Below, in pieces: positions 15,538 through 50,028 of a stretch of DNA of 64,000 nt (position 1 is its first letter; each line of letters begins with the position of its first letter). The stretch comes from Escherichia coli (GTDB lineage Bacteria; Pseudomonadota; Gammaproteobacteria; Enterobacterales; Enterobacteriaceae): the NCBI RefSeq assembly GCF_009931435.1, contig NZ_CP043414.1; one strand, written 5' to 3'. The notes under the pieces are model-generated. The model was not told where the DNA came from, ran no database searches, and saw only the letters and a list, made by a program, of their open reading frames with translations. A program made the position numbers and the translations under genes.

Positions 15538-15750
15538 ATGAACAAAAAGACCTGGTTTCGCGCATACATGTGGGCGCTGGTATGCGTCCTCGTTTCTCTC
15601 ATTCTGTATGTGGGGCTACTTCCCAGAATGATTTCATCAGACAGCTCCTTCCTGGTATTGCTGGGCATTTTTGTCGCCTTGCTGTACCCGGCGGGCGTTG
15701 TTCGCTTTTTCAGTAACTACATCAAAGCAATTATGGAAACCAAACAATGA
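15538..15750 (+). CDS. Small two-TM membrane protein (70 aa)
   Basis: Two hydrophobic helices; ATGA overlap with downstream SPFH gene. Confidence 0.5.
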   Translation: MNKKTWFRAYMWALVCVLVSLILYVGLLPRMISSDSSFLVLLGIFVALLYPAGVVRFFSNYIKAIMETKQ

Positions 15751-16571
15751 AAAAACTATTACCACTCATCCCTCTCCTGATGACCACACTTCTGGTTGGC
15801 TGTGACCGCGTGGAGCCGGGCAATGTAGGCATCAAAGTCAACAAACTGGGCGACGATAAAGGCGTCGGTGAAGTAGTTGGCGTTGGCCGCTACTGGACAG
15901 GCTGGAATACAGAGGTTTACATCTTCCCGACTTTCAAACAAATGAAGACTTACGATGAGCCGTTCAACTTCCAGATGAGTGACGGCACAACCATCGGCTA
16001 TCACATCGGCGTGGCCTACAAAGTTGATCCATCCAAAGTTACCACTGTGTTTCAGACCTACCGCAAAGGCGTGGATGACATTACCGACACTGACCTGCGC
16101 CAGAAGATCGCCGATGCACTCAACCGACTGGCCAGCAAAATGACCACCGATAAGTTTATCGACGGTGGCAAGTCTGAACTGCTGGATTCAGCACTTAAAG
16201 ACATTCAGTCAGAAATGACACCTATCGGCATTCAGGTCATGAGCCTCTCTTATGTCGGTAAACCGGAATATCCGCCAACCGTTATCGACAGCATTAACGC
16301 CAAAGTCACGGCAAACCAGAAAACCCTGCAACGCGAACAGGAAGTCAAGCAACGCGAAGCAGAAGCCAACATGTTGCGCGCAGAAGCTGCCGGACAGGCT
16401 GATGCCATTCGCACAAAAGCCCAGGCTGAAGCCGACGCCATTCGTTTACGCGGTGAAGCTCTGCGCCAGAATCCCGGCGTTATGGAGCTGGAAGCAATCA
16501 ACAAATGGAACGGCACGCTGCCGCAATACATGACCAGCAACACCGCTGTTCCGTTTGTTCCGGTGAAGTAA
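15747..16571 (+). CDS. SPFH/band-7 (prohibitin/HflKC-like) domain lipoprotein
   Basis: Signal peptide plus lipobox LLVGC; SPFH-like core; Ala/Glu/Arg-rich coiled-coil tail. Confidence 0.6.
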   Translation: MKKLLPLIPLLMTTLLVGCDRVEPGNVGIKVNKLGDDKGVGEVVGVGRYWTGWNTEVYIFPTFKQMKTYDEPFNFQMSDGTTIGYHIGVAYKVDPSKVTTVFQTYRKGVDDITDTDLRQKIADALNRLASKMTTDKFIDGGKSELLDSALKDIQSEMTPIGIQVMSLSYVGKPEYPPTVIDSINAKVTANQKTLQREQEVKQREAEANMLRAEAAGQADAIRTKAQAEADAIRLRGEALRQNPGVMELEAINKWNGTLPQYMTSNTAVPFVPVK

Positions 16572-17615: not shown

Positions 17616-20438
17616 ATGACGGCAGAGTACATCAGGGACTGGCAACAACCGCGCCACGCAGTGGGGCGTGAAGGAACGGGGATCCCCGCTCCTGAATCCG
17701 CGCTTTCCTCCTGGCTGGATGCCTACCGGGTAGAGAACGAGCGCCGCCAGGAAATGGCTGATGCGGCGTTCTCCGCCACGCCGCTGGGCAACCTGATTAA
17801 TAAAAGCCTGGACGCACAGGAAAAACAGGACAAAACCATCACACTGGCAGGAGACGCCAGAAAACAGGCACGCGGCGCAGTGGATGAAGCCATGACCTCG
17901 CTGCGCCTGCTGCCGTCCTATCTGCGCGATCCGCTTATTCGCCACCTCTCCTTCCTGCGCAAAAAACAGGAAGCCGATCGCCGGAAAGGCAAAAAGAGCT
18001 GGCAGGCGGAACGCTATGCACGCGGAACCCTGCGCAAAATATTCGAACGTCTGGACCGCACCGATCACCGCTGGCTGACACCGGGTTATCGCTCCCTTGC
18101 CGGACGCGAACGCCTGGACGATTTGCTTTACCTGCCGCAGCTCAACAAACACCAGATACAGACGCTGGCCACCATGACGGCGGCGATGTTCAGCAGCACC
18201 TTCGAAAAACTCTGCGATGGCTTTGGCGCGACTGATGGCGAACTGACCATGGATGTAACGCTGAAGGCGTATCAGATGCTGGCCCGCATGGCGTTACACC
18301 TGCACGCCATGCCTCCACATTATGACGCACTGACAACAGACAAAGACCGGAGGAACGAACCGGACACAGAGCTGCTGCCGGGCGCAATCCTTCGCCTGAC
18401 CTGTGCGGAATGGTGGAAACGCAAACTGTGGCTGTTACGTTGCGAGTGGCGGGAAGAACAACTCCGCGCCGCCTGTCTGGTTTCCAGAAAAACATCGCCC
18501 TATCTGAGCCAGGACGCGTTAAGCGAGTTTCGCGCACAGCGCGAGAAAACACGCGATTTCCTGAAAAGTTTCATGCTGGAAAACGAAGACGGGTTCACGA
18601 TTGATCTCGAGACAGTGTATTACGCGGGAGTAAGTAACCCGGTTCACCGTAAGGCAGAAATGATGGCCACCATGAAGGGACTGGAACTTCTGGCCGAAGC
18701 CCGTGGCGACAGAGCGGTGTTTCTGACTGTCACCTGCCCGTCAAAATACCACGCAACAACGGAGAACGGTCATCCGAACCCCAAATGGAACGGGGCCACC
18801 ATGCGCGACTCCAGCGATTACCTGGTTAACACGTTTTTTGCGGCGGTCCGCAAAAAACTGAACCGCGACGGCCTGCGCTGGTATGGCATCCGCACGGTGG
18901 AGCCTCACCATGACGGCACCGTGCACTGGCATATGATGGTCTTTGCTCATCCGGAAGAAATCGACAGCATCGTGGCCATCACCCGCGATATTGCCATTCA
19001 GGAAGACCGCCACGAGCTGGGCAATGATATTACTCCGCGCTTTAAAGTGGAGTATGTCGACGGCTCAAAAGGCACACCAACCAGCTATATCGCGACCTAC
19101 ATCGGGAAAAACCTGGACAGCCGCGCCGTGGATGGCATCGACCCGAAAACGGGCAAACCACGCGTTGACCACGAAACCGGAAAGTCAATGGCCGAGAGCG
19201 TGGAACGCGCCATCGGCTGGGCGCGCCTTCACCGTGTCCGCCAGTTCCAGTTCTTTGGTATCCCCTCCCGTCAGGTGTGGCGTGAACTGCGTCGCCTTGC
19301 CAGCCAGATGGCACGCAACCCGGAAGGCCCGCAACAGCTGAAGGATGACGCAATGGATGCGGTACTCGCTGCCGCTGATGCCGGATGTTTTGCCACCTAC
19401 ATAGAGAAACAGGGCGGCGTTCTTGTTCCACGCAAAGACTACCTGATTCGCACCGCCTACGACCTCGCAGATGAGCTGAACGATTACGGCGAACAGAGCG
19501 TACAGATTTACGGGATCTGGTCGCCACTCATCGGGGAATCCTCCCGTGTGTGCACGCATCCGGATAACTGGAAGCTGGTAAGACGTAAACCGGAAACGGA
19601 AGACAGCGCCCGCGAAAATGGTTTTGACCTTCAGGGCGGCCCTGCCGCCCCTTGGACTCGTGGCAATAACTGTCCCCGTGTACAGGAAACGGACAACAAC
19701 GGGACAGAACAGCCGGAAGAACGGCCAGCACCGTGGCCGCAGCTTCCTGACAGCGTTGACGTGAATGAATGGATGCGCTCACTGAAACGGCACGAACGCC
19801 GGGCGCTGATGCGTTCGCTGCGTGACAAACAGGCAAAAAACAGCAGTGATGAAATGCAGAACTGGACACAGAGCCGCAAACAGCCACGGCCTTTGCCTGA
19901 TAACCACGAGTTACTCGCTAAAGAATGGCGGGAGTCTGCTGAATCTCTCGGCCTGCATATTGGTGAACAGCAGATGCAGCACCTGTTACGGGGCGGCAGT
20001 CTGTACGTTGACGGCAGCATCATTGCACCGCAGGGATTTGAAATTGTACGCAAACCGGATACCCGCCCGGACAGCCGAATCACGCAGCTCTGGCAGCGCC
20101 TGAGCCGTAATCACGGCGTAAGCAGCACGGGGATCCGCCATAACCCGGTCGCCAGCTATCTGGAACAGCTGGGGGCATCAGACCCCGAAGCCGCCGCACG
20201 CCTGGCATCCACACTTCAGCAGGACCAGAACACCATGAAAACCCCCGTTACCGTGCTTTCTGACATGCTGCGCGCCATCCGTGACGCAGAGCACGCACAG
20301 AGAATCAGTGAAACAACTGAACGCGCCCGCCGCAAAGCAGACCTGCTGCGGGGTGGCCTGACCAGTGGAAACAAAAAACAGACAAAAACAGGATTCACAA
20401 ATCCCGTAAATGAGCAAAAAACGCGCCGTGATATATGA
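17616..20438 (+). CDS. Rolling-circle replication initiator (HUH endonuclease, P2 gpA / phiX174 gpA family), 940 aa
   Basis: HUH motif in VHWHMMVFAHP and catalytic Tyr motif YIATYIGKNLD; position after the early operon. Confidence 0.8.
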   Translation: MTAEYIRDWQQPRHAVGREGTGIPAPESALSSWLDAYRVENERRQEMADAAFSATPLGNLINKSLDAQEKQDKTITLAGDARKQARGAVDEAMTSLRLLPSYLRDPLIRHLSFLRKKQEADRRKGKKSWQAERYARGTLRKIFERLDRTDHRWLTPGYRSLAGRERLDDLLYLPQLNKHQIQTLATMTAAMFSSTFEKLCDGFGATDGELTMDVTLKAYQMLARMALHLHAMPPHYDALTTDKDRRNEPDTELLPGAILRLTCAEWWKRKLWLLRCEWREEQLRAACLVSRKTSPYLSQDALSEFRAQREKTRDFLKSFMLENEDGFTIDLETVYYAGVSNPVHRKAEMMATMKGLELLAEARGDRAVFLTVTCPSKYHATTENGHPNPKWNGATMRDSSDYLVNTFFAAVRKKLNRDGLRWYGIRTVEPHHDGTVHWHMMVFAHPEEIDSIVAITRDIAIQEDRHELGNDITPRFKVEYVDGSKGTPTSYIATYIGKNLDSRAVDGIDPKTGKPRVDHETGKSMAESVERAIGWARLHRVRQFQFFGIPSRQVWRELRRLASQMARNPEGPQQLKDDAMDAVLAAADAGCFATYIEKQGGVLVPRKDYLIRTAYDLADELNDYGEQSVQIYGIWSPLIGESSRVCTHPDNWKLVRRKPETEDSARENGFDLQGGPAAPWTRGNNCPRVQETDNNGTEQPEERPAPWPQLPDSVDVNEWMRSLKRHERRALMRSLRDKQAKNSSDEMQNWTQSRKQPRPLPDNHELLAKEWRESAESLGLHIGEQQMQHLLRGGSLYVDGSIIAPQGFEIVRKPDTRPDSRITQLWQRLSRNHGVSSTGIRHNPVASYLEQLGASDPEAAARLASTLQQDQNTMKTPVTVLSDMLRAIRDAEHAQRISETTERARRKADLLRGGLTSGNKKQTKTGFTNPVNEQKTRRDI

Positions 20439-20486
20439 AGCGCGCACAAAACAGGCGAAAACGGGATTTAAAAATCCTGTAACCGA
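20385..20486. repeat. Two copies of a ~24-bp imperfect palindrome spanning the replication-gene stop and parM upstream region
   Basis: aaaacaGGATTcacaaATCCCgtaa (20385..20410) and aaaacgGGATTtaaaaATCCTgtaa (20457..20486); possible ParR operator or parC. Confidence 0.5.
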
Positions 20487-20514
20487 TTAATTAATCAACA
20501 TAAGGAAAAGCGAC

Positions 20515-21474
20515 ATGAAAATTTGTATCGACGACGGATCCACCAACATCAAGCTGGCATGGACTGAGAACGGCGAACGCCGCAACGCCATCAGCCCGAA
20601 CAGCTTCAAGTCAGAATGGTCTGCGCCGTTCGGTGGCACGCAGCCCGCGAACTACATGCTTGATGGCGTGCGCTATGGTTTTGATCCGGTCAGCGATCGC
20701 TTTGTCCAGACGACCGACACGCAATACCAGTACAGCGATGTGAATGTCATTGCCATTCATCATGCGCTGGTCAAATCAGGCATCACGCCACAGGAGGTGG
20801 ATGTGGTTGTCACCCTGCCACTGAGCGAGTATTTCGACACAAACGCACAGCCGGACATGGCCAACATCAACCGCAAAAAAGCGAACGTTATGCGCCCGGT
20901 GGAGTACCAGAACGGCGAGGCATTCACTATCCGTAACGTGCGGGTTATGCCTGAATCCATTCCGGCTGGCTTTAAAGCACTGGCTGACATGAGTCCGTTT
21001 GAATCCCTGCTGATTGTGGATTTGGGCGGAACCACGCTGGATGTGGCAAAGGTTCAGGGGCAACTGGCAGGTATCAGCCAGGTGTTTTGCGATCCACACG
21101 TAGGCGTTTCCCTGATGGCCGATGCCGTACTGTCGGTAATGGCCACTAACGGTATGCGCACCAGTCACCACATCGCCAATACCATTATCGAACATCGCCA
21201 CGATGAAGCCTGGCTGCGCCAGCACATCCACAATAACGCACATTACGCCAGCCTGATGGCTGTTATTCGTGAAAAGGAAGAAACACTGAAACAACGCGTG
21301 ATCCGCGCGCTGGCGGGTTTTTCGGGTTACGGGCGGGTGATGGTTGTAGGTGGAGGGGCAGAGATTGTGGCACCCGCTATCCGCGAAGCCTGCGGAGTTA
21401 ATGCGACTTTCATCGCGGACGGGGTGCCACAGTTTGCTCTGGTTAATGGGCTGTACGCAATGGACAAGGAGTAA
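20515..21474 (+). CDS. parM: Actin-like segregation ATPase ParM/StbA
   Basis: N-terminal IDDGSTNIKLAW and overall similarity to plasmid R1 ParM as recalled. Confidence 0.85.
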   Translation: MKICIDDGSTNIKLAWTENGERRNAISPNSFKSEWSAPFGGTQPANYMLDGVRYGFDPVSDRFVQTTDTQYQYSDVNVIAIHHALVKSGITPQEVDVVVTLPLSEYFDTNAQPDMANINRKKANVMRPVEYQNGEAFTIRNVRVMPESIPAGFKALADMSPFESLLIVDLGGTTLDVAKVQGQLAGISQVFCDPHVGVSLMADAVLSVMATNGMRTSHHIANTIIEHRHDEAWLRQHIHNNAHYASLMAVIREKEETLKQRVIRALAGFSGYGRVMVVGGGAEIVAPAIREACGVNATFIADGVPQFALVNGLYAMDKE

Positions 21475-21478
21475 ATCA

Positions 21479-21793
21479 ATGACGACACCAACCAGACGGA
21501 TAAGTTTCTATCTGAAGCCCGCCGTCGTCAAGAGCGAACGGGAGGCGTGCAGTTACCTCGACAGCCTGCCAGCCTCCGAACGCAGCCGCGCACAACGCGC
21601 GGCTTTTCTGGCCGGACTGGCTCTTATAAAACGCACCCCCGCGTTGGCGTATTCGCTGGCAGAATGGTCAGAAGACGAAATACGGATGCCACCGCTACCA
21701 GTACAGCCTGAAAAACCGGCGCAACCAGCAGCAGACAGCGCCCCCCATATGCAGCAGGTGAAAAAGAATATTCAGGCGTTTTTCCCGAAGTGA
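21479..21793 (+). CDS. parR: ParR/StbB-like centromere-binding protein (104 aa)
   Basis: Immediately downstream of parM; AGGAG RBS; N-terminal RRISFYLKP resembles R1 ParR. Confidence 0.65.
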   Translation: MTTPTRRISFYLKPAVVKSEREACSYLDSLPASERSRAQRAAFLAGLALIKRTPALAYSLAEWSEDEIRMPPLPVQPEKPAQPAADSAPHMQQVKKNIQAFFPK

Positions 21794-21807
21794 AAACAGG
21801 AGTAACT

Positions 21808-22095
21808 ATGTCCACCATTACCAAAGAATGGTTACAACGTAAAATCACAGAGTTTAAATCGTGGCGCGAAGACATCCCGTTCGGTCTTGATGAAGACGAT
21901 CACAATATGTTAATCGCACTGGAAATCGCACTTGCATCACTGGAAGCAGAGCCAGTGGCATGGATGCACGCAAATAATCCTATTGGAATACCGGCGATAA
22001 CAAGAAGTAAAGATGTTGCAGACAGCTGGCGCTCTAAGGGATGGAATGTATTGCCTCTTTATTCACTGACCCGCTCCATCAATTTATGCCATTAA
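21808..22095 (+). CDS. Hypothetical protein (95 aa)
   Basis: ORF starting MSTITKEWLQRK. Confidence 0.4.
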   Translation: MSTITKEWLQRKITEFKSWREDIPFGLDEDDHNMLIALEIALASLEAEPVAWMHANNPIGIPAITRSKDVADSWRSKGWNVLPLYSLTRSINLCH

Positions 22096-22106
22096 TGGAA
22101 GTAATC

Positions 22107-22466
22107 ATGATGAAAGATAATTCCGGAAGCCAGCGTGCATCAGTTGCAGTTATGGTAATGATTAAATTTGTGAAACAGTACACCGGAAAGCCAATCTCGC
22201 TCCGGCAATTAAGCAAAGAAACCGTTTCACTGTCATATCTGGAGCAAATATTCAGATATTTACGGGAAAGTAGCCTGGTAAAAGCCACACGCGGCCCGGG
22301 TGGTGGATATATCCCGACAAAAGAAAATTACAGTGTTGGTGATATTGTCCGGGCAATGAAATGTTCCGGATTATATACACAGCACGTTATTCTGGCTGCA
22401 CTGGATAATATTTCTTTAACCAGCCTGCAGGAAGACACAAATTATCAGTTGTCTGCCATTGAATAA
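22107..22466 (+). CDS. Rrf2-family-like transcriptional regulator (short, 119 aa)
   Basis: LSYLEQIFRYLRESSLVKATRGPGGGY matches the Rrf2/IscR HTH signature. Confidence 0.55.
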   Translation: MMKDNSGSQRASVAVMVMIKFVKQYTGKPISLRQLSKETVSLSYLEQIFRYLRESSLVKATRGPGGGYIPTKENYSVGDIVRAMKCSGLYTQHVILAALDNISLTSLQEDTNYQLSAIE

Positions 22467-22534
22467 GAAAACCCGGAACGGGTGCGCAAATTCTTTGTGC
22501 GCCCGTTCCGGGTTGGACAAGCGAAGCGCGTCAG

Positions 22535-22792
22535 CTATCCGGCCTGCAACAACTCCAGAGCCATTTGTTTTTCTTCCGGACGCATCCGCTCAATCAACAG
22601 CTTTAACACACCATTCTCCAGCCCGCTGGGCACCAGTGTGTGCGAGTAGGTCAGATTCATCACCCAGGTATGTCCGCACTCGAGACGGGTGCAACGGTAA
22701 TACACATCAGCAAACTGATCGGTTTTCCAGGCTGTTTTCTCAATCACTGCATGTGCACCGCAGCAATGACATCGCGCTTTCTGTCTGCGCAT
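22535..22792 (-). CDS. Ogr/Delta-family zinc-finger late-gene activator (start at internal Met)
   Basis: CxCC...YYRC...CGH pattern similar to P2 Ogr; adjacent to the late operon. Confidence 0.65.
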   Translation of the reverse strand: MRRQKARCHCCGAHAVIEKTAWKTDQFADVYYRCTRLECGHTWVMNLTYSHTLVPSGLENGVLKLLIERMRPEEKQMALELLQAG

Positions 22793-22857
22793 TTTCCACC
22801 TCCCGGAACAGCGTTTTACTGCCACCGATTTTACCCGCTCTTTCCCCATACCGCACA

Positions 22858-23892
22858 TCACTCCATGGGTTCATCAAAATCAAGAATAAATTTCACCTCC
22901 CCCAGTCGTCTGATATCCGGGTCGCTGTTGATCCCCTCCATAATCAGGCGGCGCATCGGGATAACCTCATCCCTGTAATATGCCTCGCGGGATTTCAGTG
23001 GGTCACCAAGCCCGGCCGTATTTGCGGGAATGATGCCGGCAAGCCCGGGTGGAAAACGGTGCGCAACGAGCTGATCCTGGGCACTGATAGTTTTTATATT
23101 CAGGAACTCATCTTTTGTACCTGAATCTCCGATAGGGATCACCTTAACGCCTTCTTTGTCTCCGCCAGGTATATTGATAAACATGGATTTAAAATTGCCC
23201 GCCCCTTTTGACGCCTCTATCTTTTTACGGAATTCCGCCTCGAGCTCGGGATCCATGTCCGGGTCAGTGGAATACAGGATATAACCAAGATGTGCGCCGT
23301 TCTTGTAATACTTGCGGCGAAAGCGGGTGGCATCCACATTCAGCATGGCAGATTCCATCCCGTGAATATAATCCGGGACACCGTAAACCTGCTGTTGCGG
23401 GTCATAAATGGCCACGAACACTACTTCGCCTGGCGGGTAAACGAGATCTTCCAGTGCCGCCTGCACAATCACCGTGCCACCCTCGTTGTTACGCCGCAGG
23501 TACAGAGAAGGTAACGTATGCAGGCGCACCACTCGACCGAAGCCATTGCGCACTTTAAGCAACCCCATATCCCCGAATATCAGCAGATTGGTTACTGCTG
23601 CCGCCATGGCGGCGTGTGTCATACCACCACCCCCCCGAAAACCCTGCATGATCATATTGACGCGCGCACGCAATACCGCGCCGTGATACGGTGCGATATT
23701 GGACAACATGGCGAGATCCATGCGCTCAATGGGCGGCGTGTACCAGCCGTTATAGCCATCCCAGAGCGAGCCGTAATAACAGCCCCATGCAGCGACCGGT
23801 TCCGGGTCACCAAATTCAATAAAAGTCATTTTGCTGGCTGTTTTTTTTGCCACGCCATCGTGTAACACGGGGTATTTTTTCTTTTTACTCAT
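22858..23892 (-). CDS. Portal protein (P2 gpQ-like, 344 aa)
   Basis: Size and position next to terminase large subunit, divergent from scaffold/capsid. Confidence 0.75.
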   Translation of the reverse strand: MSKKKKYPVLHDGVAKKTASKMTFIEFGDPEPVAAWGCYYGSLWDGYNGWYTPPIERMDLAMLSNIAPYHGAVLRARVNMIMQGFRGGGGMTHAAMAAAVTNLLIFGDMGLLKVRNGFGRVVRLHTLPSLYLRRNNEGGTVIVQAALEDLVYPPGEVVFVAIYDPQQQVYGVPDYIHGMESAMLNVDATRFRRKYYKNGAHLGYILYSTDPDMDPELEAEFRKKIEASKGAGNFKSMFINIPGGDKEGVKVIPIGDSGTKDEFLNIKTISAQDQLVAHRFPPGLAGIIPANTAGLGDPLKSREAYYRDEVIPMRRLIMEGINSDPDIRRLGEVKFILDFDEPME

Positions 23893-25672
23893 CTGACAGG
23901 ATCCATGTTGATTTGCGCTTGTGCTTATAGTTCAGGGGTTCATTACTTGCGGCATGAGCTATGGCAAAGAAGATGTCAGCGTGCCCGGTTTCTTCGCTAC
24001 GTTCGGCGGTGAAAGTGACTTTATTGCCGCTGTTGGTGGATTCCTGACGAATGGCCAGGAACGATGCCGGAATATCCGTGGCTTCTTCATCCCACTCAAT
24101 ACGGTTGGCGTAAATCAGATCCAGCATCTTCATCACCAGGCGGTTTTTGGATTCCACGCTGTAATGAATGGCCACTGTTTCACGGCGGGCAAATCCCTGA
24201 ACCAGCTCAAAGACACCGTAGCCAAGACCGGTGACGTCAATGCCGATAAATGTCATGTTATAGCGCGCCTTAATGCTGCGGATACGCTCTGCCATAAACT
24301 GGAATGACATGCTGCGCCAGTGGTGTTTTTCCAGCACGCGGAATCGTTCTGCCGCAACCAGCGGCGGTGCCAGCACAACAAATGTGGCGTTATCGCCGGA
24401 GCGCGCAGGGTCAAAGCCGCCCCACACTTCACGGTTACCAAATGGCATGGGCTCTTCCGGGTGAAAATCCTCCCACGTACTGACATCAACACCACAACGC
24501 ACAAGATCATCGAATTTAAAGACGCTCTCTTTGTCATCCACAAACACACACATAAACAGCATATTGAACGCTGTTTCGTTGTATCGCTCGCGCAGCTCGT
24601 TGATGTCAGCAAGGTTAAAGCCGCCGGCAATGGCATCTTCCAGCGTAACCACATAGCGCCACTGACCATCCGGACATTCACGCCCACCATCGCGCAGCTC
24701 ATCAAAGGACGGAAACTCAACCCCTTTTCGTTTCGGATCGCCTTTGCGCCATTCATCGCCAGACCAGAACGGGTAACCCTGGTGTGTTTTGGATGACGGC
24801 GTGGAGAAATAGGTAATGCGCCAGTGTTTATGGGTGGCCATCCCTGATGCCACTTCATTGAGACGGCGAAAACCGGGGATCCACAGGTATTCATCAATAT
24901 ACAGGTGGCCGCTGTTTGACTGCGCTGTGTTACTGTTGGTCGCCAGAAAATACAGTTCAGCCAGATTACTTAACTTAACCGGATTGCCTTTAATGGGAAT
25001 GCCAAACTCTGTTTGTGCAATTTTTACAATATAAGTACGGAACACTTCGGCCTGACGTTTTGATGCCGATAAAAATATCTGTGTGTCGCCGGTTAATACT
25101 GCATCTTCAAATGCCTCAAACGCGAAGTAATACGTCGCCCCAATCTGGCGGGATTTAAGCAGGTTGCGTACACGGCGGAATTTGTTTTCACGCAGATGCA
25201 ACTGATAAGCAAACAACTTTTTCGTAAACGGCTCAAAACTTTCAGCAGTCAGTCCGGAAACGTCATTAGCTTTGCGGGGGCGCTCTTTCTTACCTGCACC
25301 TTTTTCTCCGCGTTCTTCTTTTCCATAACGACCAGACTGGGGAATATCCGCTCCCATTCGTTCAATCTCGGCCATTCGTTCCGTGTGCTTGTTCCTGACC
25401 GACATCAGTTTGACATGATGACCAATCAGGCGATCGAGTTCATCGTGCTCTTCCGGCGTTTTATGATCACGCTCCGCCAGTACAGCGAGACGACGGGCGA
25501 TAACATCCTCCACGCCTTCAGTATTAAGCTGTGTGTACCACTCAAACTTTGTCGCCCAGTAATAAACAATTCGCGGGCTGTTCAGTCCGAGCTTCTTTTG
25601 TATTTCTTTTGGTGTGTGTCTTTTCAGATAGAGCGATTTTGCAGCAGCAATCACCTCATCAGAATACGCCAT
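23885..25672 (-). CDS. Terminase large (ATPase) subunit, P2 gpP-like
   Basis: 595 aa; ATPase motif region; gene order. Confidence 0.85.
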   Translation of the reverse strand: MAYSDEVIAAAKSLYLKRHTPKEIQKKLGLNSPRIVYYWATKFEWYTQLNTEGVEDVIARRLAVLAERDHKTPEEHDELDRLIGHHVKLMSVRNKHTERMAEIERMGADIPQSGRYGKEERGEKGAGKKERPRKANDVSGLTAESFEPFTKKLFAYQLHLRENKFRRVRNLLKSRQIGATYYFAFEAFEDAVLTGDTQIFLSASKRQAEVFRTYIVKIAQTEFGIPIKGNPVKLSNLAELYFLATNSNTAQSNSGHLYIDEYLWIPGFRRLNEVASGMATHKHWRITYFSTPSSKTHQGYPFWSGDEWRKGDPKRKGVEFPSFDELRDGGRECPDGQWRYVVTLEDAIAGGFNLADINELRERYNETAFNMLFMCVFVDDKESVFKFDDLVRCGVDVSTWEDFHPEEPMPFGNREVWGGFDPARSGDNATFVVLAPPLVAAERFRVLEKHHWRSMSFQFMAERIRSIKARYNMTFIGIDVTGLGYGVFELVQGFARRETVAIHYSVESKNRLVMKMLDLIYANRIEWDEEATDIPASFLAIRQESTNSGNKVTFTAERSEETGHADIFFAIAHAASNEPLNYKHKRKSTWILSDE

Positions 25673-29589: not shown

Positions 29590-30299
29590 CGCGCCCCGTG
29601 ATTAACGAGTCACAACTCCGGCAGGTTCGTCGCGCCATCAGAGAGGCAGAACTTCCGCCGGCAAAGGCCAGAAAGCTGCTGGTTCGCATTGCGAAATACG
29701 GCCTGATACCGGCTGCACGACGCAATGTGAAAGCACAGCGAACACCGGAGGGGGCAGCCTGGGCACCACGAAAAAGACCGGATAAAGCCGGCGGCAGGTA
29801 TAAAAACAAAATGCTGCTGGGACTGCCGAAACTGCTGGCCATCAGGGTTGACGGCAGCGGGAAAAGTGTCCGCCTTTTCTTCAAAAAAGGGGATTACAAC
29901 ACCGGCTCTCATGGTGGGGCGGTCGCGTGGGTGCAACAGCACGGCGCAACCATCAAAGGCCGCGCCACAAAACGCCGGGACAGCGAAGCCATGCGCACCC
30001 GTCCCGCCACACGACGGCAGGCAGAACGCCTTCTTTCTCTGGGCTTTCGCGCCCCCGTCGGCGCAGTCAACAAAAAAAACGGACGCAGGGGACGCAGAAA
30101 GCCTTCTCTGAAATGGATTATGGAAAACATGAGTATGGCGCAGGCCGGACTGGTGATCAGCATTCTGAAAGGCGAGCAGAAAAAACGTGTATGGGAAATC
30201 AAAATCCCCTCCCGCGCATTTCTGGGAGCCAGCGATGCTGAATTTGCCCGCATTCTGGAAGCGCAGCTGCGCAGCCTGCATTACGGCGGCACGAGATAA
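29586..30299 (+). CDS. Putative virion morphogenesis / tail completion protein (237 aa)
   Basis: Translationally coupled; position before sheath. Confidence 0.45.
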   Translation: MTRPVINESQLRQVRRAIREAELPPAKARKLLVRIAKYGLIPAARRNVKAQRTPEGAAWAPRKRPDKAGGRYKNKMLLGLPKLLAIRVDGSGKSVRLFFKKGDYNTGSHGGAVAWVQQHGATIKGRATKRRDSEAMRTRPATRRQAERLLSLGFRAPVGAVNKKNGRRGRRKPSLKWIMENMSMAQAGLVISILKGEQKKRVWEIKIPSRAFLGASDAEFARILEAQLRSLHYGGTR

Positions 30300-45880: not shown

Positions 45881-46507
45881 ATGAAACGAAAATCAAAGTC
45901 TGCTGCCATTGCTGCTATTACTACAGCTCTGACAGCATCACTGGCTCCGGTGCCAGCTAAAAGCACGATACTACCAACAACAGTTATTGAATCCGCGACA
46001 CACGCCAGAGTGGTTTCAATGCTTACATTTGAGCATCATGATGGTCAGGTGTTTCTGCCTCTCGAAGAAGCTATTGAATATATCAACGGGCTGAATGACA
46101 ACATGCGCGCCGCGCTCAATGCAGTCATTGAAGAACGACAGAACAGAGGCAAGGGAGCACTGTTTACTGACAAAACCGCAAAAATCATAAAAATATGCGA
46201 AGAGTCAATTAAGCAGCACACCCGTGTTAAAGAGGCTGTCAAAATTGTAATGGATCCGGATAACCTGGCAAAAATGTATCCGGATAGCCTGGAGCAAAGA
46301 ATCGCCTATCGCAATAAACTGGTTCGTTTTGGTCGGGCAATTGCGCAGGGAGAGTTTATCGCTCGTGATGCCATCAACACCATCAAACGAAGCACCGCAC
46401 CAGACAAAACAACCAGCCTGGGCAATACGCTGTCTGACGGAAATGTGAAAGCAATGATTATTGCCGAGCATAAAAACATGGGACTCCCGGCACCGGAGTT
46501 TTCCTGA
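45881..46507 (+). CDS. Hypothetical protein (208 aa) with signal-peptide-like N-terminus, coupled to the YafO-like gene
   Basis: GGAG RBS before MKRKSK; N-region/hydrophobic stretch MKRKSKSAAIAAITTALTASLAPVPA; TGATG overlap with next gene. Confidence 0.6.
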   Translation: MKRKSKSAAIAAITTALTASLAPVPAKSTILPTTVIESATHARVVSMLTFEHHDGQVFLPLEEAIEYINGLNDNMRAALNAVIEERQNRGKGALFTDKTAKIIKICEESIKQHTRVKEAVKIVMDPDNLAKMYPDSLEQRIAYRNKLVRFGRAIAQGEFIARDAINTIKRSTAPDKTTSLGNTLSDGNVKAMIIAEHKNMGLPAPEFS

Positions 46508-46887
46508 TGGCAAGCAAAGTAAGCATTCATAAAGATGTTGAATACCAGGACATTGCAAAAGTTTACGGAAAGGCTCTGGAAAACTGGTTAAATACCGGTG
46601 TTCTCCCTGACAGATTCGGCAATGAAGGGCAGTGGGAAGATAACGCAAGATTATGTGGTTCGTTTGTATATAAATTACACATAAGACTACCGTCAGAACC
46701 ACCATGGAAGAAAAGCAAAGCCCAAATAGACAGAACTTCAAATATCTATCTGGTTTATACAAGGCACTGGATGGATTATGACAATATACAAATCATCAGC
46801 ATCATGGCCCCAGATGCTCACGAAAAAGCCAAAACTTCTTTCATGGCTGAACTGGAAAGACGGGCTGAAGAATTCCAGAACTCATAA
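46507..46887 (+). CDS. YafO-family toxin-like protein (126 aa)
   Basis: Blocks GVLPDRFGNEG, HIRL, YLVYTR and C-terminal ISIMAPDAHEKAK...AEEF resemble E. coli YafO as I recall it. Confidence 0.55.
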   Translation: MASKVSIHKDVEYQDIAKVYGKALENWLNTGVLPDRFGNEGQWEDNARLCGSFVYKLHIRLPSEPPWKKSKAQIDRTSNIYLVYTRHWMDYDNIQIISIMAPDAHEKAKTSFMAELERRAEEFQNS

Positions 46888-46907
46888 ATTGCCTGATTTT
46901 CTCTCAG

Positions 46908-46942
46908 AAACCCGCAGCGTAAAAACTGTGGGTTTTCTTTTT
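46908..46942 (+). terminator. Rho-independent terminator after the YafO-like operon
   Basis: Hairpin aaacccgcag...ctgtgggttt followed by T-run. Confidence 0.65.
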
Positions 46943-47178
46943 GCTACCCTGATACGTGAGGGTAGCACTCAAAGTGAGGCAATATGTAGGCAACCTATTT
47001 AATACGTAAAAATTAATGCATTAAATGGATATTTACTAGCATGGGTACTGGCTTAAAATATCACAACCCTGTTTTATAACGTACTGAATTTATTAGGTGT
47101 GACGGTTTTCCAATGGGGCTTCCGACATTACGTTCAGCTGATGCTTTTCTTATGTAACGAGAAGACATATATTGGTAA

Positions 47179-47234
47179 GCGATGAAGCGATGAAGCGATG
47201 AAGCGATGAAGCGATGAAGCGATGAAGCGATGTA
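47179..47234. repeat. Octanucleotide tandem repeat (GCGATGAA) x6 plus one degenerate unit, flanked by ATGTAACG
   Basis: Directly visible; about 95 bp upstream of the ATPase start codon. Confidence 0.95.
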
Positions 47235-47251
47235 ACGTCTGTTTGGTTATA

Positions 47252-47296
47252 AACTTCACACTAATAATTTCTAAATGAAATTATTAGTGTGAAGTT
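47252..47296. promoter_or_regulatory. 20-bp perfect inverted repeat (aacttcacactaataatttc / gaaattattagtgtgaagtt, 5-nt spacer): candidate operator or 5'-UTR hairpin
   Basis: Perfect palindrome ending 34 bp upstream of the ATPase ATG; RBS AAGGAA follows. Confidence 0.6.
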
Positions 47297-47329
47297 GATG
47301 TTTATTGTGATTATAACTAAGGAATTAAA

Positions 47330-48799
47330 ATGAAATTATCTCCAGCAGAATTGAAGTTAGAAAGGGGTAAGGTTCAAGATAATAAATTCAATCAATATGT
47401 TAAACGTATCACATTAAAAAATGTCAGAGGGTTTGATGAGGAAATTGTGGAGTTTAAAACACCAGTTACAGCTCTTATCGGGACTAATGGTGGAGGGAAG
47501 TCGACTATATTAGGTGCTGTAGCTCTCGCTTATAAAAATGTTAAGCCAAGCAAGTTTTTCCCTAAATCATTTTATGGGGATGATTCAATGAGTGATTGGG
47601 AAATTGGATTCGAATTGATTGACAAGCCTATTTCAAAAGATAAAAATATTAACAGGACTGCAAAATTTAAACAGATGAAATGGCGCAGAGATAATTTCCC
47701 AGAGCGAAATGTTGTATATGTAGAAATACAAAGAACTGTTCCTGCAGGCGAACTAACTAAGTTTAATAAATTTTTATCTGGCGATGCTAAACAATTTGAA
47801 GAAAAAAATCTCAACCCTGAGACAATAAAATATTGCTCTGCCGTTTTAGATAAAAAGATAGAAGATTACAGATGTATAATAAATAAGCACGATCCATCTT
47901 CAAGAATGTTTGTAGGTAAGGCAATTAATGGTTCTGGTTATTCTCAGTTCCATTTTGGTGCAGGTGAAGCATCAATAATAGATACTATTGATAGAATAGA
48001 GACTGCTGCTGATAATTCTCTTGTTTTAATTGAAGAAATTGAAAATGGACTGCATCCTGTTGCAGTGCGGTTGTTTGTTAACTATTTGACAAATGTAGCA
48101 AAGAGGAAAAAGCTGCAAATAATATTTACAACACATTCGCAGGATGCAGTAAACGAGCTAGAGCCAGAAGCTGTTTGGGCTTCTATTAACAAAAAAGTAT
48201 GGAATGGTAAACTAAGTATTGAAAGTTTACGCGCTATAACGGGACAGAAGATAAATTCGAAAGTTATATATGTTGAAGATTCTTTTGCAAAAGAGTGGGT
48301 TGAAAATGCGATGGATCGATATATTCCAGAACTAGCCTCAACAATAAAAGTCTACACGGCAGGTGGTTACCCCAGCGTGGTTAAAGTAAGTCAATATCAT
48401 AATGAGAACCCTACTATAAATTATCCATCAATCGCATTAGTTGATGGGGATATTAAAGGTAGACCCGGAACTAAAGATCTGCCTGATAATGCAATGTTCA
48501 TCGGGGATGATTATCCTGACGCTACGGTTTTTCATTATATTGCAAATAACATAGAAGAAAATGCCTCAGTTTTGAGGCAAAGATGTTTGTTAACAAGATT
48601 TGACGCTGAAAAGATTAAATCGGAAGTTGAGAGTGTGATGCATTCTGCATGTGATCACCATGTTTATTTTACTAGATTAAGTGATAAATTAGATTTTGCC
48701 TCAGAACTATTCATTCGAGCTGGTATGATAGATTTATTTAATGAGAAAAATCCAGAATTTTGGTCCCCAATTATGGACTTCATTAAAAAAGGTCTATAG
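47330..48799 (+). CDS. OLD-family-like ABC ATPase fused to Toprim/DUF4435-like domain (489 aa); candidate antiphage defence protein
   Basis: Walker A GTNGGGKST, Walker B LVLIEEIE, H-loop TTHS; C-terminal YVEDS (Glu) and ALVDGD (DxD); AT-rich gene. Confidence 0.65.
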   Translation: MKLSPAELKLERGKVQDNKFNQYVKRITLKNVRGFDEEIVEFKTPVTALIGTNGGGKSTILGAVALAYKNVKPSKFFPKSFYGDDSMSDWEIGFELIDKPISKDKNINRTAKFKQMKWRRDNFPERNVVYVEIQRTVPAGELTKFNKFLSGDAKQFEEKNLNPETIKYCSAVLDKKIEDYRCIINKHDPSSRMFVGKAINGSGYSQFHFGAGEASIIDTIDRIETAADNSLVLIEEIENGLHPVAVRLFVNYLTNVAKRKKLQIIFTTHSQDAVNELEPEAVWASINKKVWNGKLSIESLRAITGQKINSKVIYVEDSFAKEWVENAMDRYIPELASTIKVYTAGGYPSVVKVSQYHNENPTINYPSIALVDGDIKGRPGTKDLPDNAMFIGDDYPDATVFHYIANNIEENASVLRQRCLLTRFDAEKIKSEVESVMHSACDHHVYFTRLSDKLDFASELFIRAGMIDLFNEKNPEFWSPIMDFIKKGL

Positions 48800-48865
48800 T
48801 AATAATGCAAAAATATAATATTTAGTTTGCGATTTATATTTTTCATAATGAATTGTTGAGAAAAT

Positions 48866-48901
48866 AAGAGAGCATCGAAAATTGAGGCTCTCTTATTTTT
48901 A
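48866..48901 (+). terminator. Rho-independent terminator after the ATPase gene
   Basis: Hairpin aagagagc...gctctctt followed by T-run. Confidence 0.7.
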
Positions 48902-48959
48902 TGAGATATCTCTAATGTATTAATCGTTTTATTTTGGTGCTACCACCACTGATGCTAAC

Positions 48960-49346
48960 TTGTCGATCAGACATTCGCACTATTCAATATCTTTTAGGCT
49001 CCGCAATGAAAACGCCCCCGAAGGAACAATCCCCCGTCAATCGGTTGCCAAAGGCCATTTAGGTAAATCGCCTTCGAGGTCGTTCGATGGCTGCATGACG
49101 TTCCCGGTTATCCCGTCAAAGAAAATGCACTCGACCGGAAAACCAGAAGAACTAATGGCGGAGTTGGTCAGGACTGCGAATAGTGGCGGAACAGTCCTTG
49201 ATCCTTTTATGGGGCCAGGGACAACGGGTGTGGCTGCACTGAAAGCAGGGCGAAAATTTATTGGTATAGAGACCAGTGATCATTATTTTGAAGTAGCAGC
49301 ACAGCGACTTCGGGGGACTATTACCACAACCATTTCGACTACATAA
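48960..49346 (+). pseudogene. 3' fragment of a beta-class DNA methyltransferase gene (N6-adenine or N4-cytosine), N-terminally truncated
   Basis: HSTGKPEELMAEL and VLDPFMGPGTTGVAALKAGRKFIGIE (SAM-binding FxGxG) present; no catalytic DPPY region upstream. Confidence 0.6.
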
Positions 49347-49350
49347 GACA

Positions 49351-49378
49351 AAGCCCGCATTTTTGCGGGCTTGTATAT
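49351..49378 (+). terminator. Terminator hairpin after the methyltransferase remnant
   Basis: aagcccgca tttt tgcgggctt stem-loop. Confidence 0.6.
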
Positions 49379-49446
49379 CATTAGTGATGTGGACAGTTTG
49401 TGGATGTTTACAAGAAATAAGCTAATAGAAACAATTTGTTATCTTT

Positions 49447-49473
49447 ACAAAAAACGCGCCCGAAGGCGCGTTG
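49447..49473. repeat. attR: right copy of the 27-bp direct repeat; also the raiA terminator hairpin
   Basis: acaaaaaacgcgcccgaaggcgcgttg; perfect hairpin acgcgcc/ggcgcgt plus T-run on the raiA strand. Confidence 0.75.
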
Positions 49474-49495
49474 GCGATACACTCAATATAAAGGA

Positions 49496-49891
<396 letters not shown>

Positions 49892-50028
49892 TCAAAATGT
49901 GTGATGGAAATCTCATAATTTTGTCACTTTTTGTCAACGAATCTTTTTTGTGAGAAATCGCAGGAAGAGGTGTTTTTTTACTTGAGGAATATCTCAAAGC
50001 GAGCCATATTTGATGAGATCGATAGTGA

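What the first reader, a model, noticed from the sequence alone, without database searches (positions are those of the whole stretch)
17616..20438. HUH rolling-circle initiator with a long C-terminal extension
The replication protein carries a phiX174/P2 gpA-type HUH motif and YxxxYxxK catalytic motif but at 940 aa is markedly longer than P2 gpA (~760 aa). The extra ~300 C-terminal residues are Arg/Gln/Glu-rich and extend up to the palindromic repeats at the parM promoter.
Basis: partly seen in the sequence, partly recalled or inferred. Interest (0 to 1): 0.3.

Follow-up and report, generated by a model that had tools for sequence, protein, structure and literature searches.

The report
P88-type prophage gpA replication nickase
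This is the ordinary, already-annotated rolling-circle replication nickase (gpA) of a very common P88-like P2-family prophage of E. coli; its "long C-terminal extension" is mostly the modular tail that P2 gpA also has, plus about 100 extra residues, the last 22 of which are encoded by the start of the neighbouring plasmid-partition (parMR) cassette.

Summary
The 940-aa ORF (17616-20438, +) is real. It carries the HUH motif (H437-W-H439) and Y491-x3-Y495-x2-K498. It is the gpA "replication endonuclease" of a P88-like (Xuanwuvirus) P2-family prophage, 97-98% identical in DNA to phages P88, P884B11 and Shae_phiSM. The exact protein is already in public databases, and the gene/parM junction occurs in 1,286 of 5,426 complete E. 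coli genomes.

The "~300 extra C-terminal residues" are not confirmed. P2 gpA (761 aa) aligns out to residue ~830. The 179-aa excess splits into about 35 N-terminal, 40 internal and 104 C-terminal residues.

After the core (to ~660), the tail consists of:
- a disordered linker whose DNA carries the conserved ori nick sequence, at the position annotated in P2;
- two family-wide modules, including a small alpha/beta domain under very strong purifying selection;
- a helical module shared with SW3-type gpA;
- a clade-specific long helix;
- a 22-residue end encoded by the first repeat of the parMR cassette.

That last stretch is conserved as DNA whatever reads into it. Post-core tails are common among gpA homologues, and some homologues are as long (943 aa). 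Verdict: ordinary and already known; low interest.

The parts
17616..20438 (+). gpA replication endonuclease / rolling-circle initiator CDS, 940 aa plus stop
   Evidence: ORF. Pfam Phage_GPA E=2e-130. PHROG 91 'nicking at origin of replication' matches residues 3-940. 96.8-98.3% nt identity over the full length to the same gene in phages P88, P884B11 and Shae_phiSM. The exact protein is in public databases as 'replication endonuclease'.
18924..18932 (+). HUH metal-binding motif codons (H437-W438-H439)
   Evidence: Aligned to P2 'HWH'. H437, W438 and H439 are nearly invariant in 139 homologues.
19086..19109 (+). Catalytic tyrosine motif codons, Y491-x3-Y495-x2-K498
   Evidence: Aligned to P2 'YIAKYISK'. 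Y491, Y495 and K498 are nearly invariant.
19596..19760 (+). Coding region for the disordered linker (aa 661-715) between the core and the tail modules
   Evidence: AF2 pLDDT is below 50 over residues 666-706. pN/pS is 0.73 with low pS of 0.042, i.e. relaxed as protein and constrained as DNA.
19644..19673 (+). Putative ori nick-site sequence GCCGCCCCTTGGACTCGTGGCAATAACTGT. The nick is predicted at about 19654/19655 by homology to the nick annotated in P2.
   Evidence: Aligns with the P2 sequence around the annotated 'nick site at ori' (P2 record position 29892, inside gene A). Third-codon-position identity is 0.81 over codons 673-684 across 7 divergent gpA genes, against a gene-wide mean of 0.34 (SD 0.10), while aa identity there is only 0.47. 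56 Klebsiella phages match the gene by megablast; the 11 listed all match only at query nt 2017-2078, which is window 19632-19693.
19761..19832 (+). Helical hairpin module (aa 716-739) carrying the 'ERRxLxRxLR' motif, shared with P2-, RE2010- and SW3-type gpA
   Evidence: Alignments. AF2 helices at 716-722 and 725-739. Profile hits in 10 homologue tails.
19905..20114 (+). Compact alpha/beta tail domain (aa 764-833) with the 'SxGxxLS...LLRGGxxxxxG...W' motif; family-wide and uncharacterised
20115..20243 (+). Helical module (aa 834-876, 'NHGVxxxxIRxxPVxxY'), shared only with SW3/Irrigatiovirus-type and a few other long gpA proteins
   Evidence: Alignments. Profile hits to SW3, P0026, P0036 and P0029. 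pN/pS 0.27.
20244..20354 (+). Long helix specific to the P88 clade (aa 877-913)
   Evidence: tblastn of residues 744-940 finds only 14 P88-like phages, all at >=93% identity. AF2 predicts a helix at 877-913. pN/pS is 0.22 for residues 877-910. It is present in STEC379 gpA, which has no par cassette.
20370..20435 (+). Last 22 codons (aa 919-940, KKQTKTGFTNPVNEQKTRRDI), encoded by the left end of the parMR cargo module
   Evidence: DNA homology to loci with unrelated upstream genes (L006, L008) starts at window 20373. The same 22 aa end a different 155-aa ORF in L006. PGAP calls the stretch an orphan pseudogene remnant in L008. It is absent from the 921-aa STEC379 gpA. The segment is predicted disordered. 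pN/pS is 0.53.
20372..20409 (.). 38-nt repeat unit 1, with palindrome ACAGGATTcacaAATCCCGT at 20388-20407; candidate ParR-binding (parC-like) site inside the gpA reading frame
   Evidence: the repeat finder families D1 and I1. Pattern search gives 2 hits against 0.08 expected. Conserved in 9 loci regardless of upstream context.
20445..20482 (.). 38-nt repeat unit 2, with palindrome ACGGGATTtaaaAATCCTGT at 20461-20480, in the spacer before parM
   Evidence: The 73-nt start-to-start spacing equals the spacing of the iteron clusters upstream of an IncL/M plasmid parM.
20515..21474 (+). parM (actin-like plasmid segregation ATPase); first gene of the cargo in the gpA-portal hotspot
   Evidence: Pfam StbA_N E=1.8e-82 and ParM_N E=1.6e-68. 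Annotated as ParM in P88 and in RefSeq genomes.
21479..21793 (+). parR-like adaptor gene (Plasmid_stab_B family)
   Evidence: Pfam PF10784 E=1.9e-24. Annotated as 'partition protein' in P88.

Best explanation
The ORF is the gpA rolling-circle replication initiator of a P88-like (Xuanwuvirus, Peduoviridae) prophage.

Mechanism, by homology to P2 gpA. The HUH motif (H437/H439) holds a divalent metal. Y491 and Y495 cleave one strand at a specific ori sequence that lies inside the gene itself (about 19654) and become covalently attached to the 5' end. The free 3'-OH then primes rolling-circle synthesis.

The C-terminal 280 residues are a beads-on-a-string tail rather than one novel extension:
(1) A disordered linker (661-715). 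Its sequence matters as DNA, because it contains the ori, and not as protein.
(2) A helical hairpin (716-739).
(3) A compact alpha/beta domain (764-833). Both (2) and (3) are also present in P2 gpA and in many other homologues. The domain is the most strongly constrained part of the whole protein. I infer that it is needed for initiation, by recognising ori as duplex DNA or by recruiting a host or phage helicase.
(4) A helical module (834-876) shared with SW3-type gpA.
(5) A long helix (877-913) found only in the P88 clade and kept under purifying selection.
(6) A disordered 22-residue end. It exists because the gpA reading frame runs into the first repeat of the parMR cassette inserted in the gpA-portal cargo hotspot, and stops there.

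Shown here: identity, motifs, module boundaries, DNA-level conservation at the nick site, selection patterns and the par-module boundary. Inferred only: the biochemical roles of modules 2-5 and ParR binding to the repeats.
For: Identity:
- Pfam Phage_GPA and PHROG 91 matches.
- 97-98% nt identity to the P88, P884B11 and Shae_phiSM gpA genes, all 2823 nt and followed by parM/parR.
- The exact protein is in public databases, in a 16,881-member 90%-identity cluster whose named members read are all called 'replication endonuclease'.
- The gene/par junction is present in 1,286 of 5,426 complete E. coli genomes.

Homology with P2 extends well into the tail.

Ori: the P2 record annotates the nick inside gene A. 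The homologous window sequence shows third-position identity of 0.81 against a mean of 0.34, with only 0.47 aa identity. It is the only part of the gene that the listed Klebsiella phages match by megablast.

Structure: the core is confident, residues 661-715 and 740-763 are disordered, the domain at 764-815 has pLDDT above 90, and there is a helix at 877-913.

Selection (pN/pS): core 0.10; linker 0.73 with low pS; domain 764-833 zero (0 nonsynonymous against 85 synonymous differences); residues 877-910 0.22; residues 919-940 0.53.

Par boundary: homology with L006 and L008 starts at 20373. STEC379 gpA, followed by a different cargo, ends at 921 aa without the 22-aa end.

Hotspot: the gpA-gpQ interval is a published cargo hotspot in which about a quarter of E. 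coli P2-like phages carry a partition system (PMC9122126).
Against: - The profile search for the alpha/beta domain did not recover P2, RE2010 or the Klebsiella tails at E<=1e-3. Their homology rests on MAFFT alignments and shared motifs.
- The nick position is transferred from the P2 annotation and was not measured.
- ParR binding to the 38-nt units is untested. No sigma-70 consensus promoter was called in 20372-20514.
Confidence: 0.85

Rival explanations
1. One reading: a gpA core carrying a distinctive, roughly 300-residue Arg/Gln/Glu-rich C-terminal extension that other gpA proteins lack, possibly a new appended function.
For: The protein is 179 aa longer than P2 gpA. Pfam covers only residues 179-503, and the tail has no Pfam domain. 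Q is about twice as frequent in the tail as in the core. Residues ~861-940 really are restricted to the P88 clade.
Against: P2 gpA aligns out to residue ~830. Only ~104 residues are extra at the C-terminus. Tails of 100-290 aa are common in the family, and proteins of 878, 902 and 943 aa exist. The composition bias is mild.
Confidence: 0.07
2. Gene fusion: the clade-specific end (about residues 861-940) derives from a formerly separate small gene between gpA and parM. That gene would have been fused in frame to gpA by loss of the gpA stop codon or by a deletion.
For: Related elements do have a separate small ORF between a shorter gpA and the same par module: a 155-aa ORF in L006 and a 151-aa ORF in L008. 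The L006 ORF ends with the identical 22 residues. SW3-type gpA proteins stop close to the position equivalent to residue ~870.
Against: Beyond the shared 22-29 terminal residues, BLASTP finds no similarity between residues 829-940 and the 155-aa ORF. The two small ORFs are unrelated to each other. Residues 877-910 are present in STEC379 gpA without any par module. That ties the helix to gpA and not to the cargo.
Confidence: 0.12
3. Functional coupling: the overlap of the gpA 3' end with the first par repeat is selected. Either the C-terminal peptide or helix contacts ParR/ParM, or transcription and translation through repeat 1 modulates par expression. This would link rolling-circle replication to partition of an extrachromosomal form.
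For: Repeat unit 1 lies inside the ORF in every P88-like phage examined. A 34.4-kb circular 'plasmid' record is a P88-like phage genome. Published speculation holds that par lets P2-like prophages persist as plasmids (PMC9122126).
Against: The same repeat 1 sits in a non-coding or pseudogene context in L008 and at the end of an unrelated ORF in L006. The encoded peptide therefore follows the DNA and not gpA. The peptide is predicted disordered and evolves with relaxed constraint: pN/pS is 0.53, and P88 differs from the window at 4 of the last 22 residues. gpA works without it in STEC379-type phages, whose gpA is 921 aa.
Confidence: 0.05

Closest known systems
Replication endonuclease (gpA) of Escherichia phage P88 (NC_026014, gp16, YP_009113059.1) and other Xuanwuvirus phages (P884B11, Shae_phiSM, vB_EcoM-569R5)
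   Same: Same gene. It is 2823 nt / 940 aa with 96.8-98.3% nt identity over the full length. It has the same neighbours (366-nt ORF upstream, parM and parR downstream), the same 76-nt spacer and the same repeat units.
   Different: Only point differences. For example, 4 of the last 22 residues differ from P88. The cargo downstream of parMR differs between strains.
Bacteriophage P2 gpA (NP_046795.1, 761 aa), the characterised cis-acting HUH initiator with ori inside gene A
   Same: 31% identity over query residues 77-744. It has the same HUH and Y-x3-Y-x2-K motifs. The nick-site sequence is conserved at the same position in the gene (P2 GCCGCGCCTCGGAGTCCTGTCAATAACTGT against window GCCGCCCCTTGGACTCGTGGCAATAACTGT). 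The post-nick 'RALR' helix and the 'LxRGxxVxxxG...W' module are also shared.
   Different: The query is 179 aa longer: +35 at the N-terminus, about +40 internal, and +104 after the last shared tryptophan (W826 against P2 W751). P2 is followed by orf91, tin and old rather than parMR.
gpA of Salmonella phage SW3 (Irrigatiovirus, 878 aa) and cluster representatives P0026 (868 aa) and P0036 (841 aa)
   Same: These long gpA proteins share the tail out to query residue ~856-860, including the extra 'NHGVxxxxIRxxPVxxY' helical module.
   Different: About 35% identity. They lack residues ~861-940 and have no par cassette downstream.
Type II plasmid partition locus parMRC (R1-type; here the StbA_N/ParM_N plus Plasmid_stab_B families)
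   Same: An actin-like ParM gene and a small ParR-like gene, preceded by two repeat units 73 nt apart. An IncL/M plasmid homologue has two iteron clusters with the same spacing.
   Different: The units here are 38-nt repeats that each hold a 6+4+6 palindrome, rather than arrays of ~10-11-nt iterons. Only two units were found. The first overlaps the end of the replication gene. ParR binding was not tested.

Membership tests
P2 gpA-type HUH rolling-circle initiators (Pfam Phage_GPA PF05840; PHROG 91) | Family profile match above the curated threshold | tested here: met
   PF05840 scores 434.9 bits against a cutoff of 31.4, E=2e-130, covering profile positions 1-321 of 321. PHROG 91 gives E=1.4e-276 over residues 3-940.
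P2 gpA-type HUH rolling-circle initiators (Pfam Phage_GPA PF05840; PHROG 91) | HUH metal-binding motif | tested here: met
   H437-W438-H439, in nearly invariant columns of 139 homologues and aligned with the P2 motif.
P2 gpA-type HUH rolling-circle initiators (Pfam Phage_GPA PF05840; PHROG 91) | Two catalytic tyrosines spaced Y-x3-Y, followed by a conserved Lys | tested here: met
   Y491, Y495 and K498 are nearly invariant and align to P2 'YIAKYISK'.
P2 gpA-type HUH rolling-circle initiators (Pfam Phage_GPA PF05840; PHROG 91) | Origin/nick site located inside the initiator's own coding sequence | tested here: met
   The sequence homologous to the nick annotated in P2 is present at 19644-19673. 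It shows a DNA-level conservation signature: third-position identity 0.81 against a mean of 0.34. Actual cleavage was not measured.
P2 gpA-type HUH rolling-circle initiators (Pfam Phage_GPA PF05840; PHROG 91) | Site-specific nicking with covalent 5'-phosphotyrosine attachment; cis-preferential action | not testable with these tools
   This needs biochemistry or genetics.
P2 gpA-type HUH rolling-circle initiators (Pfam Phage_GPA PF05840; PHROG 91) | Genomic context: last gene of the early operon of a P2-like prophage, next to the cargo hotspot and the portal and terminase genes | tested here: met
   Portal (22858-23892, -) and large terminase (23885-25672, -) lie downstream. The gene order is the same as in P88. 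The hotspot is described in PMC9122126.
Xuanwuvirus (P88-like) gpA | Near-identical full-length sequence including the clade-specific residues 861-940 | tested here: met
   96.8-98.3% nt identity over 100% of the gene. The tail of residues 744-940 is found only in these 14 phages, all at >=93% identity.
Type II partition system ParMRC (neighbouring module overlapping the gene end) | Actin-like ParM ATPase plus a small ParR adaptor gene | tested here: met
   StbA_N E=1.8e-82 and ParM_N E=1.6e-68. Plasmid_stab_B E=1.9e-24.
Type II partition system ParMRC (neighbouring module overlapping the gene end) | A parC centromere of repeated ParR-binding sites upstream of parM that includes the promoter | tested here: inconclusive
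   There are two 38-nt units with palindromes, 73 nt apart and conserved in 9 loci. The spacing matches a plasmid homologue. No consensus promoter was called, and binding was not tested.

The most novel reading that the evidence does not exclude
Two related readings are not excluded.

First, the small, extremely constrained alpha/beta domain (aa 764-833) that follows the ori-encoding linker could be a previously undescribed functional domain of gpA-type initiators. It is family-wide, has no Pfam model and matches no solved fold. It might recognise duplex ori DNA or load a helicase.

Second, in P88-like phages the reading of gpA through the first ParR-site repeat could mechanistically couple rolling-circle replication to par expression, and so to maintenance of a plasmid-like state.
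Probability: 0.1. Interest if true: 0.4.

Novelty: already known. Interest (0 to 1): 0.12.

Why it matters
It matters little as a discovery. The gene is a routinely annotated replication endonuclease of a prophage found in about a quarter of complete E. coli genomes.

The dissection is useful for annotation in four ways:
- It shows that Pfam covers only about a third of gpA.
- It shows that the ori is embedded in a linker-coding stretch that is conserved as DNA.
- It shows that gpA tails are modular and vary by clade.
- It shows that the left edge of hotspot cargo (here parMR) can reach into the last codons of gpA. This explains length variants of 921, 940 and 946 aa and the orphan 'DNA replication protein' pseudogene calls.

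The uncharacterised alpha/beta tail domain is under very strong selection. It is a reasonable target for anyone studying P2-type initiation.

Tried and rejected
- Domain searches of the tail found nothing: Pfam on residues 707-940 gave no hit at E<=0.1, and NCBIfam on the whole protein gave no hit.
- PDB sequence search gave nothing relevant.
- Foldseek of the full model against PDB gave only weak HUH-domain matches (Helitron, AAV Rep) at E>=0.04.
- The word-indexed homologue search with residues 744-940 returned only fragments of the same E. coli protein.
- I tested whether the tail DNA came in with a plasmid parMRC locus. Plasmid homology (67% nt identity) starts only at the parM start codon, so this was rejected at the DNA level.
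- I tested whether P0029 marks a shorter natural C-terminus. Its locus L006 is frameshifted and mosaic, so it was rejected as evidence for length. It was still useful for locating the par-module boundary.
- The 155-aa ORF of L006 has no match in the phage collection or Pfam, and is unrelated to the 151-aa ORF of L008.
- Literature searches for P2 gpA C-terminal function found nothing usable in the open-access library (one search failed on a term that was too short). The P88 and phiSM papers do not discuss the replication protein.
- The sigma-70 scan found no consensus promoter between 20372 and 20514.
Full report
**Observation.** The window has an uninterrupted ORF at 17616-20438 (+) encoding 940 aa. 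Pfam Phage_GPA (PF05840) matches residues 179-503 at E=2e-130, and PF23343 (Rep ORF2/G2P) matches weakly. PHROG 91, 'nicking at origin of replication', matches residues 3-940. BLASTP against P2 gpA (761 aa, taken from NC_001895) gives 31% identity over query residues 77-744 against P2 42-687. This places the HUH motif at H437-W438-H439 and the tyrosine motif at Y491-x3-Y495-x2-K498. In a 139-sequence alignment of representatives these residues fall in nearly invariant columns. So the ORF, its length, the motifs and the length difference from P2 are all real.

**Identity.** The gene is 96.8-98.3% identical in DNA, over its full 2823 nt, to the 'replication endonuclease' of phages P88, P884B11, Shae_phiSM and several other E. 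coli phages of the genus Xuanwuvirus (Peduoviridae). The neighbours are the same: a 366-nt ORF upstream and parM and parR downstream.
- The exact 940-aa protein is already in public databases. Its 90%-identity cluster has 16,881 members. Members listed have lengths of 921, 940, 942 and 946 aa plus partial fragments, and the named ones are all called replication endonuclease.
- The 3' part of the gene together with the parM junction is present in 1,286 of 5,426 complete E. coli genomes, including O157:H7, E2348/69 and ST131 strains. Nearly all copies are chromosomal.
- The P88 and phiSM papers do not discuss this protein.

**How much of it is 'extension'.** Three lines of evidence show that the supposed ~300-residue extension is mostly ordinary gpA.

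First, homology with P2 continues far beyond residue 640. BLASTP runs to residue 744. MAFFT alignments of the C-terminal parts carry it through a shared 'ERRxLxRxLR' helix and a shared 'SxGxxLS...LLRGGxxxxxG...W' module, with query W826 opposite P2 W751, only 10 residues from the P2 C-terminus. From these alignments the 179-aa excess is about +35 at the N-terminus, +25 in the core, +15 in the linker and modules, and +104 after W826.

Second, long tails are normal in the family. Among the best 150 cluster representatives, out of 2,525 hits at E<=1e-3, lengths range up to 943 aa with many at 800-900 aa. Alignments typically stop at query residue ~686-692, and the unaligned C-terminal remainder has a median of ~69 aa, a 90th percentile of ~149 aa and a maximum of ~291 aa. 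Annotated phage genes give a series of 761 (P2), 794 (Klebsiella Gegevirus), 804 (RE2010), 878 (SW3), 921 (STEC379 prophage) and 940 aa.

Third, the composition bias is mild. In residues 691-940 against 1-690, Q is 7.6% vs 3.9%, R is 10.8% vs 9.4% and E is 7.6% vs 6.8%.

**Anatomy of the tail.** An AlphaFold2 model built with the 139-sequence alignment has mean pLDDT 82.8. A tail-only model gives the same picture apart from a longer first helix.

| Residues | Model | Distribution among homologues | pN/pS |
|---|---|---|---|
| 28-660 | confident core | whole family | 0.10 (residues 101-660) |
| 661-715 | disordered linker; encodes the ori nick site | variable as protein | 0.73, pS only 0.042 (core 0.108) |
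| 716-739 | helical hairpin | shared with P2, RE2010, SW3 | 0.175 (residues 716-763) |
| 740-763 | second disordered stretch | variable | included above |
| 764-833 | compact alpha/beta domain, pLDDT >90 over 764-815; two helices, three strands, then a helix at 817-833 | at least 21 of 88 homologue tails | 0 (85 synonymous, 0 nonsynonymous) |
| 834-876 | lower-confidence helices | SW3, P0026, P0036 and P0029 only | 0.27 |
| 877-913 | long helix | P88 clade only | 0.22 (residues 877-910) |
| 915-940 | disordered basic end | depends on the cargo module | 0.73 (residues 911-918) and 0.53 (919-940) |

Residues ~861-940 are found, by tblastn against 50,697 phage records, only in the 14 P88-like phages at >=93% identity. 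The pN/pS values come from six close relatives. They show that the alpha/beta domain is the most constrained part of the protein, that the clade-specific helix is a real, selected protein segment, and that the linker and the extreme end are not constrained as protein.

**The ori is inside the gene, in the linker.** The P2 GenBank record annotates the 'nick site at ori' at position 29892, inside gene A at about codon 620. The surrounding P2 sequence, GCCGCGCCTCGGAGTCCTGTCAATAACTGT, aligns with window 19644-19673, GCCGCCCCTTGGACTCGTGGCAATAACTGT.
- In a codon alignment of seven gpA genes that are only ~30-45% identical as proteins, codons 673-684 have third-position identity of 0.81. The gene-wide mean is 0.34 and the SD of 12-codon windows is 0.10. 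Amino-acid identity there is just 0.47. That is the signature of selection on DNA.
- 56 Klebsiella phages match the gene by megablast; the 11 listed all match only at query nt 2017-2078, which is this same spot.
- Most distant protein alignments end at residue ~686, the 'NNC' encoded by CAATAACTGT.

By homology, the nick is predicted at about 19654/19655. This is inference from P2 and was not measured.

**The last 22 codons belong to the par module.** A 38-nt unit occurs twice: at 20372-20409, inside the ORF, and at 20445-20482, in the 76-nt spacer before parM. Each unit contains a GGGATT-N4-AATCCC-type palindrome. The palindrome pattern has 2 hits in the window against 0.08 expected. Natural variants define module boundaries.
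- In E. coli SWHEFF_58 (L008), gpA is 768 aa and is followed by an unrelated 151-aa ORF. Homology to the window starts at 20373, and PGAP calls the 22-codon stretch an N-terminally truncated 'DNA replication protein' pseudogene.
- In a decayed, mosaic locus (L006), a different 155-aa Cys-rich ORF reads into the same DNA and ends with the identical KKQTKTGFTNPVNEQKTRRDI.
- In E. coli STEC379 (L009), the cargo is an AAA ATPase plus an S8 peptidase. Its gpA shares the tail to residue ~910 and stops at 921 aa.

An alignment of nine loci shows continuous conservation from 20373 to parM regardless of what lies upstream. So the 877-913 helix travels with gpA, and the terminal ~22-30 residues are dictated by whatever cargo sits in the hotspot.

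The gpA-gpQ interval is a published cargo hotspot, and about a quarter of E. coli P2-like phages are reported to carry a putative partition system there (PMC9122126). This agrees with the 24% found here. ParM and the ParR-like protein are confirmed by Pfam. An IncL/M plasmid homologue has iteron clusters upstream of parM with the same 73-nt spacing. This is modest support for a parC-like role for the two units. Binding and the promoter position remain untested.

**Mechanism.** By homology with P2 gpA, the protein is an HUH nickase-ligase that cuts one strand at the ori inside its own gene, attaches covalently through a tyrosine and primes rolling-circle replication. That biochemistry is my own knowledge of the P2 system; the record annotation is. 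The tail modules have no assigned function anywhere I could search. My best inference is that the strongly constrained alpha/beta domain and the preceding basic helix take part in initiation, through duplex-ori recognition or helicase recruitment. I further infer that the clade-specific helices are accessory, and that the terminal peptide is a by-product of the par insertion.

**Rivals.** A gene-fusion origin for residues 861-918 is possible but unsupported, because no similarity to the free-standing ORFs was found beyond the par-encoded end and the helix is present without par. A selected functional coupling between gpA and par is unlikely, because the DNA is conserved in non-coding and foreign-ORF contexts and the peptide is poorly constrained.

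**Verdict.** The interpretation as an HUH initiator is right. The '300-residue extension' is an over-reading of a family-typical modular tail with about 100 clade-specific extra residues. The gene is already known and extremely common, so interest is low.

Noticed in passing
plasmid record NZ_CP148288.1 (hits H30/H112); not a window coordinate: A 34,461-bp circular, non-mobilizable E. coli 'plasmid' record matches the window's gpA gene over 89% of its length and the parM/parR region at about 95-96% identity, and is about the size of a P88-like phage genome. It may be an extrachromosomal (phage-plasmid) state or just an assembled induced phage.
   Followed up: no
L008:4504-4959, L006:4810-5277: In related prophages a small ORF sits between a shorter gpA and the same par module: 151 aa in L008, and 155 aa in L006 with CxxC...CxxC motifs. 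Neither has Pfam hits, the 155-aa ORF has no phage-collection hit, and the two are unrelated to each other.
   Followed up: partly
window 17616-17920 (gpA codons 1-100): The N-terminal ~100 residues of gpA are a second variable end. Phages PhiR44_2 and Chuche and several plasmid or chromosome records match the gene only from nt 304 onward. Among close relatives, pS is 0.27 and pN/pS is 0.69 for this region, and the first 27 residues are predicted disordered. This points to a recombination breakpoint inside the 5' part of the gene.
   Followed up: partly
L006 (GCA_002973245.1 contig JZQA01000170.1), whole locus: The locus contains frameshifted gpA pieces and two copies of the gpA-tail/parC/parM-5' region in tandem, with fragmented parM genes. 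It is either a decayed, rearranged prophage or an assembly chimera of two related prophages.
   Followed up: partly
L009:4713-8083 (E. coli STEC379): In this P88-like prophage the hotspot next to gpA carries an AAA-family ATPase plus an S8 peptidase in place of parMR. It is probably a defence cassette.
   Followed up: no
window 15747-16571: A 274-aa protein in the early operon upstream of gpA is annotated 'SPFH domain-containing protein' by PGAP but 'lipoprotein / serine protease' in the P88 record. It is an unusual passenger in a P2-type early operon.
   Followed up: no
window 46001-50000: A marked drop in G+C to 0.39, against ~0.50-0.58 in the surrounding sequence. It probably marks foreign cargo or the prophage-host boundary.
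   Followed up: no
L014 (E. coli strain 1190, NZ_CP023386.1) versus window 20439-22857: Strain 1190 is 100% identical to the window over 19850-20900. Its gpA-to-portal interval is 3.8 kb, longer than the window's 2.4 kb, and includes a Doc/Phd toxin-antitoxin pair. So the cargo beyond parMR varies even between near-identical prophages.
   Followed up: no
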